From assembly GCF_056746865.1 (NCBI RefSeq), contig NZ_CM163382.1: a DNA stretch of 64,000 nt. The stretch is one strand, 5' to 3'. Position 1 is the first letter of the stretch, and the number at the start of each line of letters is the position of its first letter. The position numbers are program-made. This document shows positions 52,301 through 55,300 of the stretch, piece after piece.

Positions 52301-55300
52301 TAACAGTAAATGATGTAATTCACCGGTCATCACGGTGCGAAAATCGTTGATTTGCTGGCTATCGGCCTGCACCCATTTGCAATGGGTTCCGGGCATAACA
52401 TAAAGAGAGGAAGGAGCCAAAGTGCGCGCGCCGATCAATTGTGTTTCTTCGCCGCGCATCACATTATGGTTATCGTCATGAGAGACGCATAATCCGGGAA
52501 TAATCCAGATATTGTCGCCAACAGACGTTAATTGTTCGCCAATAGACGAAAAACGGGCAGGAACGGATAAATACGGTGCAACTTTCCAGCCGACATTGCT
52601 GCCGACCATTCCTGCCATCACCACTGGCGTATTCTCTTCATGCCAGTCGGTCGTCACTTCTGCTAACACCGCAGCCGGAGATTTTCCGTTCAGGCGCGTG
52701 ACGCCTGCTTCTGATTGCCTGCTGTCCAGGCAGTGGTCGCCCTGATAAAGCCAGGCGCGCAGATTGGTCGATCCCCAGTCAATTGCGATGTAGCGAGCTG
52801 TCATGTGATTTCCTTTAACCTTCGTGTCGAGCTGGCGATCATGGTAAGCGCCGCCTGCTCTGCCGCATCGCCGTCCTGATGCCGTATTGCATCGAACAGC
52901 GCCTTATGTTCCTGGAGCGTTTGCGGCATGTTGGCCTCATCGCCCATCCAGGTTCGTTCAAAAACCGCCCGCTGCAGCGAACTGATCGCAATGCTAAGTT
53001 GCTGTAACACCGGGTTATGCACCGACTGCAGCACCGCCTCGTGGTAGCGAATATCCGCTTCGTTAAACGCTTCGCGGTCCTGATTGTTGGCAATCATCTC
53101 GTTCAGCGCCGATTCAATCTGCGCCAGATCGCTGGAAGTCGCGCGTTCTGCCGCCCAACGGGCAATCGCCGGTTCCACCAGATTTCGCACTTCGCTCATG
53201 GCACTGATAAGCCGTGGGTCGTAGTCGTTTTCCAGCACCCATTGCAGTACGTCAGTGTCGAGGTAATTCCACTGGTTACGCGGTGCCACAAACGCGCCGC
53301 GATAACGTTTCATTTCAATCAGCCGCTTCGCCATCAGCGAGCGGAACACCTCACGGATGATGTTGCGCGAGGTTGCAAACTCCTCACAGAGTTCCGCCTC
53401 AGCCGGAAGCGGCGAGCCTGGCACGTATTTGCCGTGAACGATCTGTTTGCCCAGCGTAATGACGATGCGATCGGTTTTATTGAGAGTCATGGAGAGTCCT
53501 TGTGCTCTGTATGTTCTTCTCTACTTTACCCCGATCGATGCATAACGCGGCAACTTTGTAGTACCAGCGTGATGACGTTCGCGTTTGCTGTGTGTGTAAT
53601 GTAGTACAAACTTATATTGTTGTACTACAATTTAGATCACAAAAAGAACAATGCATAAAAAAATGACATGCGTCGGGCAGAAATCTGAAAAGGGATGTCA
53701 GGCGCTAAACAGGAGGGAAAGAAGAGTATGCTTTCAACGGCTTAGCTACTCGTTTAAAGGATTAATCATGAAGTTGAATTTTAAGGGATTTTTTAAGGCT
53801 GCCGGTTTGTGTTCTTTGGCATTTGCGTTGACCGGATGTATCACCTGGGGATTGGTTTCCAATACTGCAAGCCGTCCACATGCCGAGCAATGGCGGTCAG
53901 ACACGATTAAGGGTTTATCGCTGGCTGAAGACAGTAACGGTACGAAAGGCTATGTTTTTGTTGGTGAATCGTTGGACTATCTGTTGACCACCGGCGGCGG
54001 TGAGGTGGTTAAAATGCTGAACGATCCGGCAATTCATGGTGAAAGAATCACCGTTTCTGATAACGCGAAATTTATTTTAAGCAGCAGTAATAAGAAATTC
54101 TCTGGTGCTATTACGCTCTATTACGACTGGAACAACGAAGAAGATAAGGCACTGGCAACACAATATGGTTTTATTTGTGATACCCGGCGTTGTACATGGA
54201 TGCTGGACGGTTTGAAAGGCTCAATCCACCAGAAAAATAAAAAAGCGGATTACTCAAACGTGATGGTTTTCCATCAACCCTTTACGGTGGGATTTTATGA
54301 ATACAAAGCAACAGATGGCGTCCCGCGCGGCCTCGTTAATGCGCTGCTGCCAGTCACTCTTACGCTGGATATAGTAACGTCACCACTCCAGTTCCTGATT
54401 TTATGCACGACCAGAAATTGTTAATCGCTGCGGGCAAACGCATTCATGCCGTTTGCCCGTTCACTGATTAATTCAGCACATACTTCTCAATAGCAAATGC
54501 CACGCCATCTTCAAGGTTGGATTTGGTGACAAAGTTCGCCACTTCTTTCACCGAAGGAATAGCGTTATCCATCGCCACACCGACGCCTGCATATTCAATC
54601 ATTGCGATGTCGTTTTCCTGATCGCCAATCGCCATGATTTCTTCCGGTTTAATACCTAACACGTCGGCCAGTGATTTCACACCCGTACCTTTGTTAACGC
54701 GTTTATCGAGGATTTCGAGGAAGTACGGCGCACTTTTCAGCACGGTGTATTTTTCTTTCACTTCCTGCGGAATACGCGCAATGGCCTGGTCGAGGATGGC
54801 GGGTTCATCAATCATCATCACTTTCAGGAACTGGGTATTGGGGTCCATTTTCTCCGCTTCGCAGAACACCAGTGGAATGGTGGCAACGAAGGATTCATGC
54901 ACCGTGTAGTAGCTGATATCTCGGTTGGCGGTGTACAGCGTGGTGCGGTCCAGGGCGTGGAAATGAGAACCGACTTCGCGGGAGAGTTTTTCCAGGAAAC
55001 GGTAGTCGTCATAGCTGAGAGCGGTTTGCGCCACAGTGCTACCATCGGCGGCCTTCTGTACCAGCGCGCCGTTATAAGTAATGCAGTAGTCGCCCGGCTG
55101 TTCCATATGCAGCTCTTTCAGGTAGTTGTGAACGCCTGCATAAGGGCGACCCGTCGTTAGCACGACATTCACGCCACGGGCGCGAGCTGCGGCAATCGCA
55201 TTTTTAACGGCGGGTGAAATGGTGTGATCGGGCAGCAGAAGGGTGCCATCCATATCGATAGCAATGAGTTTGATAGCCATGAGTTCCCCAGGTAGATTGG

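What the first reader, a model, noticed from the sequence alone, without database searches (positions are those of the whole stretch)
53556..53630. Triplicated DgoR operator-like repeats upstream of dgoR
Three TTGTAGTAC-type inverted-repeat elements cluster in the roughly 130-bp region upstream of dgoR, consistent with autoregulated, D-galactonate-inducible control of the dgoRKADT operon, which is transcribed divergently from yidX.
Basis: partly seen in the sequence, partly recalled or inferred. Interest (0 to 1): 0.3.

Follow-up and report, generated by a model that had tools for sequence, protein, structure and literature searches.

The report
Known DgoR operator sites upstream of dgoR
The three short palindromes are real and are the binding sites of DgoR, the repressor of the E. 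coli galactonate operon: two are already proven by experiment and the third was already predicted, so this is a textbook-style regulatory region and not a discovery.

Summary
The window is E. coli chromosome. Three 11-bp palindromes of the type TTGTA-S-TACAA lie 66-140 bp upstream of dgoR: 53620-53630 is a perfect match, and 53599-53609 and 53556-53566 each have one mismatch. They are the only matches with at most one mismatch in 64 kb.

The two distal sites are the published DgoR operators IR1 and IR2. They overlap a CRP-dependent, D-galactonate-inducible promoter. The third site is ignored by the experimental papers I could read. It was, however, already listed as a predicted DgoR site in the supplement of a 2015 comparative-genomics paper.

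I confirmed it as a phylogenetic footprint. In about 80 Enterobacterales species:
- All three sites keep fixed spacing: 21 bp between IR1 and IR2, then 42-44 bp to the third site.
- The third site is an island of conservation (1.62 bits per column against 0.40 for background).
- It is never a perfect palindrome (0 of 80).
- It sits a rigid 38 bp upstream of an invariant TAAAGT, which resembles a -10 promoter element.

The mechanism for IR1 and IR2 is established: repression that D-galactonate relieves. The role of the third site is inferred only. It may be an auxiliary low-affinity operator or a modulator of the basal downstream promoter.

Verdict: already known, low interest.

The parts
53620..53630 (.). 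DgoR operator IR1 (O1), a perfect palindrome TTGTACTACAA / TTGTAGTACAA, at -140..-130 from the dgoR ATG. It overlaps the right half of the CRP site and the -35 region of promoter P1.
   Evidence: Identical to the published IR1 oligonucleotide (PMC11705089). It lies in the Sort-Seq repressor footprint at -140..-110, and DgoR was enriched by DNA-affinity purification of that region (PMC6003448). Perfect in 74 of 80 sequences (79 species plus the window), and the top-ranked conserved 11-mer.
53599..53609 (.). DgoR operator IR2 (O2), with one mismatch (sense strand TTGTACTACAT), at -119..-109. It overlaps the P1 -10 hexamer.
   Evidence: Published as IR2 'with one mismatch'. Lies 21 bp from IR1 in 80 of 80 sequences. 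Overlaps the -10 hexamer TACATT named by Belliveau et al..
53556..53566 (.). Third, predicted DgoR operator (O3), TTGTAGTACCA on + and TGGTACTACAA on the sense strand, at -76..-66. It fits the FadR-subfamily TKGT-N3-ACMA consensus. Binding has not been shown experimentally.
   Evidence: Listed as a DgoR site (CACGCTGGTACTACAAAGTTG) in the supplement of Suvorova et al. 2015. Conserved island of 1.62 bits per column against a background of 0.40. Lies 42-44 bp from IR2 in 80 of 80 sequences, is never a perfect palindrome (0 of 80), and has 1 mismatch in 67. Within E. coli only position 2 and the flanks vary.
53626..53641 (-). CRP site (class II), sense strand TGTGATCTAAATTGTA. Its left half TGTGA is at 53637-53641, and it contains a GATC at 53635-53638.
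   Evidence: Sort-Seq logo TGTGA at -160..-140 with class II activation (PMC6003448). TGYGA lies 11 bp before IR1 in 78 of 80 sequences. The GATC inside the CRP site is hemimethylated in Salmonella (PMC7708049).
53598..53603 (-). -10 hexamer TACATT of the inducible promoter P1. The inferred transcription start is near -101 relative to the ATG, about window 53591.
   Evidence: The hexamer is named in PMC6003448 and its position was read from the sequence. The start site is inferred from the -10 position and from the CRP centre at -41.5; it has not been mapped.
53521..53530 (-). Invariant block GGTAAAGTAG (TAAAGT = 53523-53528), the probable -10 of the downstream basal promoter P2.
   Evidence: Belliveau et al. 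report an RNA polymerase site at -30..-70 in glucose. The block is nearly invariant in 79 species. It starts exactly 38 bp after the start of O3 in 75 of 80 sequences, while its distance to the ATG varies from 32 to 40 bp. Assigning it as a -10 element is my inference.
53548..53553 (-). Possible -35 of P2 (TTGCCG, 19-bp spacer), 2 bp downstream of O3.
   Evidence: Read from the sequence. The equivalent hexamer in other species is NTGNGG (GTGAGG, ATGAGG, TTGAGG), so its resemblance to a -35 element is weak. Inference only.
52801..53490 (-). dgoR, the GntR/FadR-family repressor and first gene of dgoRKADT. The Shine-Dalgarno sequence AAGGA is at 53497-53501.
48768..52804 (-). dgoK (51926-52804), dgoA (51325-51942), dgoD (about 50180-51328) and dgoT (about 48768-50105), the regulated structural genes.
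   Evidence: ORFs. RefSeq annotation of the identical sequence in strain 118UI; the dgoD and dgoT coordinates were transferred from locus L001.
53768..54424 (+). yidX, a divergent neighbour and predicted lipoprotein. It is not part of the dgo system.
   Evidence: It is absent from this interval in other genera.

Best explanation
The 75-bp cluster is the operator array of the D-galactonate (dgoRKADT) operon.

Shown in the literature: DgoR dimers bind IR1 (53620-53630) and IR2 (53599-53609). These overlap the CRP/-35 region and the -10 hexamer of the CRP-dependent promoter P1. Binding represses the operon, including dgoR itself, and D-galactonate releases DgoR.

Inferred: the third palindrome (53556-53566) is a conserved, deliberately imperfect, low-affinity DgoR site.
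- It lies on the same DNA face as IR1 and IR2. Centre-to-centre distances are 21, 43 and 64 bp, or about 2, 4 and 6 helical turns.
- It sits at about +26..+36 of the P1 transcript.
- It is centred about 45 bp upstream of the predicted start of the weak basal promoter P2.

My best guess is that a third DgoR dimer binds there, helped by the dimers at IR1 and IR2. It would then tune the basal P2-driven supply of DgoR, or stabilise the repression complex. The sign and size of that effect are unknown.
For: Evidence for the array as a whole:
- DgoR identity.
- IR1 sequence identity and the two-IR repression model with D-galactonate release: PMC11705089 and PMC12288454.
- Sort-Seq repressor footprint at -140..-110 that disappears in a dgoR deletion and in galactonate, DgoR pulled down by that DNA, the CRP class II site and the TACATT -10: PMC6003448.

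Evidence for the third site:
- Predicted as a DgoR site in E. coli, E. fergusonii, Shigella, Salmonella, Klebsiella, Enterobacter, Cronobacter and Serratia (PMC4494728 supplement).
- Present at a fixed offset in 78 of 80 sequences.
- A conservation island while the flanks diverge; upstream regions are a median 57% identical to the window.
- A matrix trained only on IR1 and IR2 scores it 14.8 bits, against 8.8 for the best non-dgo 11-mer in the window.
- It fits the FadR-subfamily TKGT/ACMA consensus with 3-nt spacing.
- Its spacing to TAAAGT is rigid at 38 bp.
- The core is conserved across 5,021 E. coli genomes; variation was seen only at position 2 and in the flanks.

Precedents in related regulators:
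- LldR uses two phased operators with DNA looping.
- Three NanR dimers bind one operator (abstract).
Against: No experiment I could read shows DgoR on the third site.
- The Chaba-lab model and its 55-nt EMSA probe contain only IR1 and IR2.
- Sort-Seq in glucose reported derepression only at -140..-110. It assigned -30..-70 to RNA polymerase, so mutating the third site evidently gives no obvious derepression on a plasmid reporter.
- The Reg-Seq authors consider the dgoR promoter to have no undiscovered sites.
- DgoR is described as a dimer, and no tetramer that could loop DNA is known.
- In most genera the third site breaks the core AC dinucleotide (TTGTACTGCAA), which may weaken binding severely.
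- Singh et al. 2019, the primary operator paper, was not available.
Confidence: 0.9

Rival explanations
1. The third palindrome is conserved as part of the downstream promoter P2, for example as an upstream or -35-proximal element contacted by RNA polymerase. On this reading DgoR does not bind it, and its resemblance to IR1 and IR2 is a relic or a coincidence.
For: Rigid 38-bp spacing to the invariant TAAAGT block. Belliveau et al. assign -30..-70 to RNA polymerase and report no repressor signal there. The site is never a perfect palindrome.
Against: What is conserved is the DgoR half-site pattern TNGTA-S-TNCAA, not an A/T-rich UP element or TTGACA. The central base flips between C and G, and position 2 drifts, just as in IR2. 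A matrix trained on IR1 and IR2 ranks it far above background. Independent comparative genomics called it a DgoR site. It keeps helical phase with IR1 and IR2 in 80 of 80 sequences.
Confidence: 0.2
2. The third site is bound by a different FadR-subfamily regulator, such as PdhR, LldR, UxuR or ExuR. In E. coli its left half, TGGT, equals the PdhR/FadR half-site, so it could give cross-regulation of dgo.
For: E. coli TGGTACTACAA is 10 of 11 identical to TGGT-N3-ACCA (sequence; the PdhR consensus is from my own knowledge). The paralogues share the GntR and FCD architecture.
Against: TGGT is not conserved. Other genera, and some E. coli strains, have TAGT or TTGT. The conserved features match DgoR sites. 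I found no literature support.
Confidence: 0.04
3. The clustering is a chance occurrence of an A/T-rich palindrome in an intergenic region.
For: With 2 mismatches allowed, the motif is no more frequent than expected: 11 matches against 10.1 expected.
Against: With at most 1 mismatch there are only these 3 sites in 64 kb. All three are positionally conserved in about 80 species. Two are validated experimentally.
Confidence: 0.01

Closest known systems
E. coli DgoR operators IR1 and IR2 (Singh et al. 2019, J Bacteriol; Arya et al. 2021; PMC11705089; PMC12288454)
   Same: Window 53620-53630 and 53599-53609 are these sites, base for base. The gene order, autorepression and inducer are the same.
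   Different: The published model has two inverted repeats and two dimers. The window, like K-12, also carries a third conserved site 43 bp further downstream that the model omits.
Predicted DgoR regulon sites in Enterobacteriales (Suvorova, Korostelev and Gelfand 2015, PLoS One, S1 file; the same group's RegPrecise collection, the latter from my own knowledge)
   Same: It lists exactly the three E. coli sites found here, including CACGCTGGTACTACAAAGTTG, and three sites in most enteric genera.
   Different: It is a prediction only, with no positional or functional interpretation. My analysis adds fixed spacing, helical phasing, the 'never perfect' property and the coupling to the TAAAGT block across 79 species.
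[quoted passage not shown] 2018; Ireland et al. 2020)
   Same: A CRP class II site at -160..-140, a DgoR footprint at -140..-110, the -10 hexamer TACATT, and a second RNA polymerase site at -30..-70. All map onto conserved blocks in my alignment.
   Different: No regulatory role was assigned to -76..-66.
LldR at lldPRD: two phased operators flanking the promoter, with repression by DNA looping (Aguilera et al. 2008, as cited in PMC8689689)
   Same: A FadR-subfamily organic-acid regulator with a promoter-proximal operator plus a second operator downstream of the start site. By my recollection O2 is at about +22..+38, similar to the third DgoR site at about +26..+36 of P1. Repression depends on helical phase.
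   Different: LldR has two operators about 130 bp apart and also activates. For DgoR, neither looping nor oligomerisation beyond a dimer has been shown.
NanR on the (GGTATA)3 operator (PMC8012715)
   Same: A GntR/FadR-type sugar-acid repressor for which three dimers assemble on three closely spaced repeats.
   Different: NanR binds direct hexamer repeats that are contiguous. The DgoR sites are palindromes spaced 21 and 43 bp apart.
FadR as an activator at the fabA -40 region (Henry and Cronan 1991/1992; my own knowledge, not checked here)
   Same: A FadR-family dimer site centred about 40-45 bp upstream of a weak promoter. The third DgoR site is centred about -45 from the predicted P2 start.
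   Different: There is no evidence that DgoR ever activates transcription, and the P2 start site is unmapped.

Membership tests
DgoR / FadR-subfamily GntR operator | Palindromic core TKGT-N3-ACMA (for DgoR, TTGTA-S-TACAA) | tested here: met
   All three sites fit: TTGTACTACAA, ATGTAGTACAA (10 of 11) and TTGTAGTACCA (TKGT/ACMA satisfied).; consensus from PMC4494728.
DgoR / FadR-subfamily GntR operator | The cognate regulator, encoded next to the sites, has a GntR winged-helix domain and an FCD domain | tested here: met
   Pfam GntR (2.9e-14) and FCD (2.1e-27). Full-length match to the DgoR structure 7C7E, E = 3.7e-149. RefSeq annotation as DgoR.
DgoR / FadR-subfamily GntR operator | Identity with the experimentally defined DgoR-binding sequences | tested here: met
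   The IR1 oligonucleotide is identical to window 53635-53614 (-), and IR2 carries one mismatch as published. This applies to two of the three sites only.
DgoR / FadR-subfamily GntR operator | Conservation of the site upstream of orthologous dgoR genes (phylogenetic footprint) | tested here: met
   80 loci. IR1 is present in 80 of 80, IR2 in 80 of 80, and the third site has at most 2 mismatches in 78 of 80. Spacings are fixed and the flanks diverge.
DgoR / FadR-subfamily GntR operator | DgoR binding in vitro or in vivo, released by D-galactonate | not testable with these tools
   Published for IR1 plus IR2. Nothing was found for the third site.
Auxiliary operator or DNA-looping repression (lac O1-O3, gal OE-OI, LldR O1-O2) | Operators in helical phase at conserved distances | tested here: met
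   Centre-to-centre distances of 21, 43 and 64 bp. IR1 to IR2 is 21 bp in 80 of 80; IR2 to the third site is 43 bp in 71, 42 in 6 and 44 in 3.
Auxiliary operator or DNA-looping repression (lac O1-O3, gal OE-OI, LldR O1-O2) | The repressor can bridge two operators, as a tetramer or through dimer-dimer cooperativity | not testable with these tools
   The literature describes DgoR as a dimer and nothing more.
Auxiliary operator or DNA-looping repression (lac O1-O3, gal OE-OI, LldR O1-O2) | Mutating the auxiliary site weakens repression | not tested
   The Sort-Seq text reports derepression only at -140..-110, which argues against a large effect. The raw data were not available here.
CRP class II-activated promoter | A CRP half-site TGTGA with its partner overlapping the -35 region, centred about -41.5 | tested here: inconclusive
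   TGTGATCTAAATTGTA is at 53641-53626 (-), and TGYGA lies 11 bp before IR1 in 78 of 80 sequences. The function is shown in PMC6003448. The start site is unmapped, so the -41.5 centring is inferred.

The most novel reading that the evidence does not exclude
The current two-inverted-repeat model of DgoR control is incomplete. On this reading the conserved, always-imperfect third palindrome (53556-53566) is a genuine low-affinity DgoR site, held in helical phase with IR1 and IR2 and exactly 38 bp from the -10-like TAAAGT of the basal promoter P2.

DgoR bound there would either complete a cooperative three-dimer (possibly looped) repression complex, or tune or even activate P2 in the way FadR activates fabA. 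Activating P2 would secure the repressor's own supply while P1 is shut.
Probability: 0.45. Interest if true: 0.3.

Novelty: already known. Interest (0 to 1): 0.12.

Why it matters
The finding has little wider importance. It correctly re-identifies a characterised regulatory region of a model organism. The one useful residue is that the experimental literature works with two operators, while comparative genomics (2015, and confirmed here on about 80 species) shows a third, strongly conserved and systematically weakened site coupled to a second promoter.

Testing that site would refine a model system used for two purposes: allostery in GntR/FadR regulators, and quantitative promoter dissection by Sort-Seq and Reg-Seq. 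It could also explain how basal DgoR levels are set. dgoR variants are selected during gut colonisation (background from PMC12288454 and PMC7064181, as listed).

Tried and rejected
- **Sigma-70 and terminator consensus scan of 53400-53850:** nothing reached 9 of 12. P1 is CRP-dependent with a poor -35, and P2 has a 19-bp spacer, so the scan says nothing either way.
- **RNA-level explanation for the conservation of the third site:** RNAalifold on 17 diverse 5'UTRs (-102..+6) gave 0 base pairs. Rejected.
- **Motif with 2 mismatches allowed:** not enriched, 11 matches against 10.1 expected. Only the search allowing at most 1 mismatch is informative.
- **The extra TGTAGTAC at 60896-60903:** it scores 7.0 bits and lies far from the dgo genes. 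Treated as chance.
- **Singh et al. 2019 (PMC6351737):** not held.
- **Belliveau et al. supplementary information:** not held. I therefore could not inspect the Sort-Seq shifts at -76..-66.
- **Full-text search for the site strings:** no paper discusses the third site in its main text.
- **A CRP-like reading of the conserved TCACG flank of the third site:** rejected, because there is no TGTGA partner at the right distance (read from the sequence).

Full report
**What is there**

The window is E. coli chromosome. A 1.8-kb query around the finding is 100% identical to several complete E. coli genomes, where the genes are annotated dgoK, dgoR, yidX-family/hypothetical and yidA.
- dgoR is 52801-53490 on the - strand, followed by dgoK, dgoA, dgoD and dgoT.
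- yidX starts at 53768 on the + strand.
- The dgoR product has GntR and FCD domains and matches the DgoR chain of PDB 7C7E over its full length at E = 3.7e-149.

**The observation**

| Site | Window coordinates | + strand sequence | Position from dgoR ATG |
|---|---|---|---|
| S1 | 53556-53566 | TTGTAGTACCA | -76..-66 |
| S2 | 53599-53609 | ATGTAGTACAA | -119..-109 |
| S3 | 53620-53630 | TTGTACTACAA | -140..-130 |

Each is itself an 11-bp palindrome of the type TTGTA-S-TACAA. With at most one mismatch these are the only three matches in 64 kb, against 0.64 expected, and they fall within 75 bp. With two mismatches the motif is not enriched. A weight matrix trained only on the IR1 and IR2 sites of other species ranks them 1st, 2nd and 3rd in the window, at 20.3, 18.2 and 14.8 bits; the next best is 8.8.

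**What is already known**

The Chaba laboratory's papers describe DgoR as a dimeric GntR/FadR repressor. [quoted passage not shown] The IR1 oligonucleotide they give, CTAAATTGTAGTACAACAATAT, is S3 read on the dgoR strand. IR2 'has one mismatch' and is S2 (PMC11705089 and PMC12288454).

Belliveau et al. (PMC6003448) found four features by Sort-Seq:
- a repressor footprint at -140..-110 from the dgoR start codon (window 53630-53600, which is S3 plus S2), lost in a dgoR deletion and in D-galactonate, with DgoR pulled down by that DNA;
- a class II CRP site at -160..-140 (TGTGA);
- the -10 hexamer TACATT (window 53603-53598);
- a second RNA polymerase site at -30..-70.

The third palindrome, S1, is not part of any experimental model I could read. 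The EMSA probes are 55-mers carrying only IR1 and IR2, and a full-text search for the site strings found no main-text mention. It is, however, already in the literature as a prediction. The supplementary table of Suvorova, Korostelev and Gelfand 2015 (PMC4494728) lists three DgoR sites for E. coli b4479, the third being CACGCTGGTACTACAAAGTTG. It lists three sites likewise for E. fergusonii, Shigella, Salmonella, Klebsiella, Enterobacter, Cronobacter and Serratia. The primary operator paper (Singh et al. 2019) was not available.

**Comparative test**

I fetched 80 loci encoding DgoR orthologues, 79-99% identical, from different Enterobacterales species and analysed 300 bp upstream of each.
- **Positions.** All three sites are positionally conserved.
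- **Spacing.** IR1 to IR2 is 21 bp in 80 of 80. IR2 to S1 is 43 bp in 71, 42 in 6 and 44 in 3.
- **Conservation.** In a 79-sequence alignment whose members are a median 57% identical to the window, S1 is a conservation island at 1.62 bits per column. Background is 0.40 on average and 0.97 at most. Every higher-ranked 11-mer overlaps IR1, IR2, the CRP half-site or the GGTAAAGT block.
- **Match quality.** IR1 is a perfect palindrome in 74 of 80 and IR2 has one mismatch in 72 of 80. S1 is never perfect (0 of 80) and has one mismatch in 67.
- **Where S1 deviates.** The mismatch sits either at position 2 (TGGT or TAGT in Escherichia, Salmonella, Klebsiella and Citrobacter) or at position 8 (TGCAA or TTCAA in Enterobacter, Buttiauxella, Cedecea and others).
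- **Fit to the subfamily consensus.** The E. coli form satisfies TKGT-N3-ACMA.
- **Variation within E. coli.** 5,021 of 5,426 genomes carry the S1 41-mer with at most one change. The changes I inspected lie in the flanks or at position 2.
- **RNA structure.** There is no conserved RNA structure in the 5'UTR, with 0 predicted pairs, so the conservation acts at the DNA level.

**Anatomy and likely mechanism**

On the dgoR strand the order of elements is:
1. CRP site TGTGATCTAAATTGTA (-151..-136);
2. IR1 (-140..-130), overlapping the CRP right half and the -35 region;
3. IR2 (-119..-109), overlapping TACATT (-113..-108);
4. the inferred P1 transcription start, near -101;
5. S1 (-76..-66);
6. TTGCCG (-63..-58);
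7. the invariant GGTAAAGTAG (-40..-31);
8. the Shine-Dalgarno sequence AAGGA (-11..-7);
9. the ATG.

Repression of P1 by DgoR at IR1 and IR2, its relief by D-galactonate, and CRP activation are all shown in the literature.

The statements about S1 are inferred.
- Its centre lies 43 and 64 bp from IR2 and IR1, about 4.1 and 6.1 helical turns, so all three sites face the same side of the DNA.
- It is at about +26..+36 of P1.
- It starts exactly 38 bp before TAAAGT in 75 of 80 sequences, although the distance from TAAAGT to the ATG drifts between 32 and 40 bp.
- If TAAAGT is the -10 of the '-30..-70' RNA polymerase site, S1 is centred near -45 of that basal promoter, directly abutting its weak -35.

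The most economical reading is a conserved low-affinity third operator. It would be occupied with help from IR1 and IR2, and would either stabilise the repression complex or tune the basal promoter that supplies DgoR.

Related FadR-type regulators offer precedents. LldR uses two phased operators with looping. Three NanR dimers bind one operator. FadR activates fabA from about -40 (my own knowledge).

Several points count against a strong role. Sort-Seq reported no derepression signal at S1. The Reg-Seq authors regard the promoter as fully mapped. DgoR is known only as a dimer.

**Rivals**
- S1 could be conserved purely as a P2 promoter element (confidence about 0.2). Against this, what is conserved is the DgoR half-site pattern, including the C/G flip at the centre.
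- Cross-binding by PdhR-like paralogues is unlikely, because TGGT is not conserved.
- Chance and RNA structure are excluded.

**Verdict**

The region is a known, well-studied operator-promoter. Two sites are experimentally established and the third was already predicted computationally. Novelty: already known. The only open point is the function of the third site, which would be an incremental refinement of the DgoR model.

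Noticed in passing
window 53768-54424 (+), yidX: The YidX protein encoded here is a predicted lipoprotein with the lipobox LTGC. 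It is only 62% identical to the K-12-type YidX at the same locus in another E. coli strain, although the adjacent dgoR encodes the identical protein in both. A 1.8-kb query spanning dgoR to yidX is 80-90% identical in 3,145 of 5,435 E. coli records but at least 95% identical in about 1,900. Two deeply diverged yidX alleles therefore segregate in the species. yidX is absent from this interval in Salmonella, Klebsiella, Enterobacter and other genera.
   Followed up: partly
window 53635-53638 (GATC inside the CRP half-site TGTGATCT): This GATC is conserved upstream of dgoR in nearly all 79 species. In Salmonella the single GATC upstream of dgoR, listed at -147 and lying within the putative CRP site, is hemimethylated, and dgoR shows Dam-dependent ON/OFF heterogeneity (PMC7708049). 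E. coli has an extra pair of GATCs, ATCGATCG at 53533-53540, in the P2 spacer that Salmonella lacks.
   Followed up: partly
L082 (E. coli 2018-05-2CC), equivalent to window ~48.8-53.67 kb: This strain has lost the whole dgoRKADT operon together with all three operators; only a dgoT remnant is left next to cbrA. About 400 of 5,426 complete E. coli genomes lack the operator region.
   Followed up: partly
window 53521-53530 (-), GGTAAAGTAG: This block is almost invariant across 79 species and is as conserved as the operators. I interpret it as the -10 of the basal promoter, but the presumed -35 is poor (NTGNGG) and the spacer is 19 bp. It could therefore be something else, such as another factor's site.
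   Followed up: partly
Shigella flexneri dgoR upstream region (table in PMC4494728 supplement): IR1 is mutated to TTGTAGCGCAA in S. flexneri, while IR2 and the third site are intact. This may be decay or derepression of the dgo operon in that lineage.
   Followed up: no
L057 (record titled Chryseobacterium sp. 18061): A contig labelled Chryseobacterium carries an enterobacterial dgoR (90% identical) with the enterobacterial operator layout. It is probably a mislabelled or contaminated assembly.
   Followed up: no
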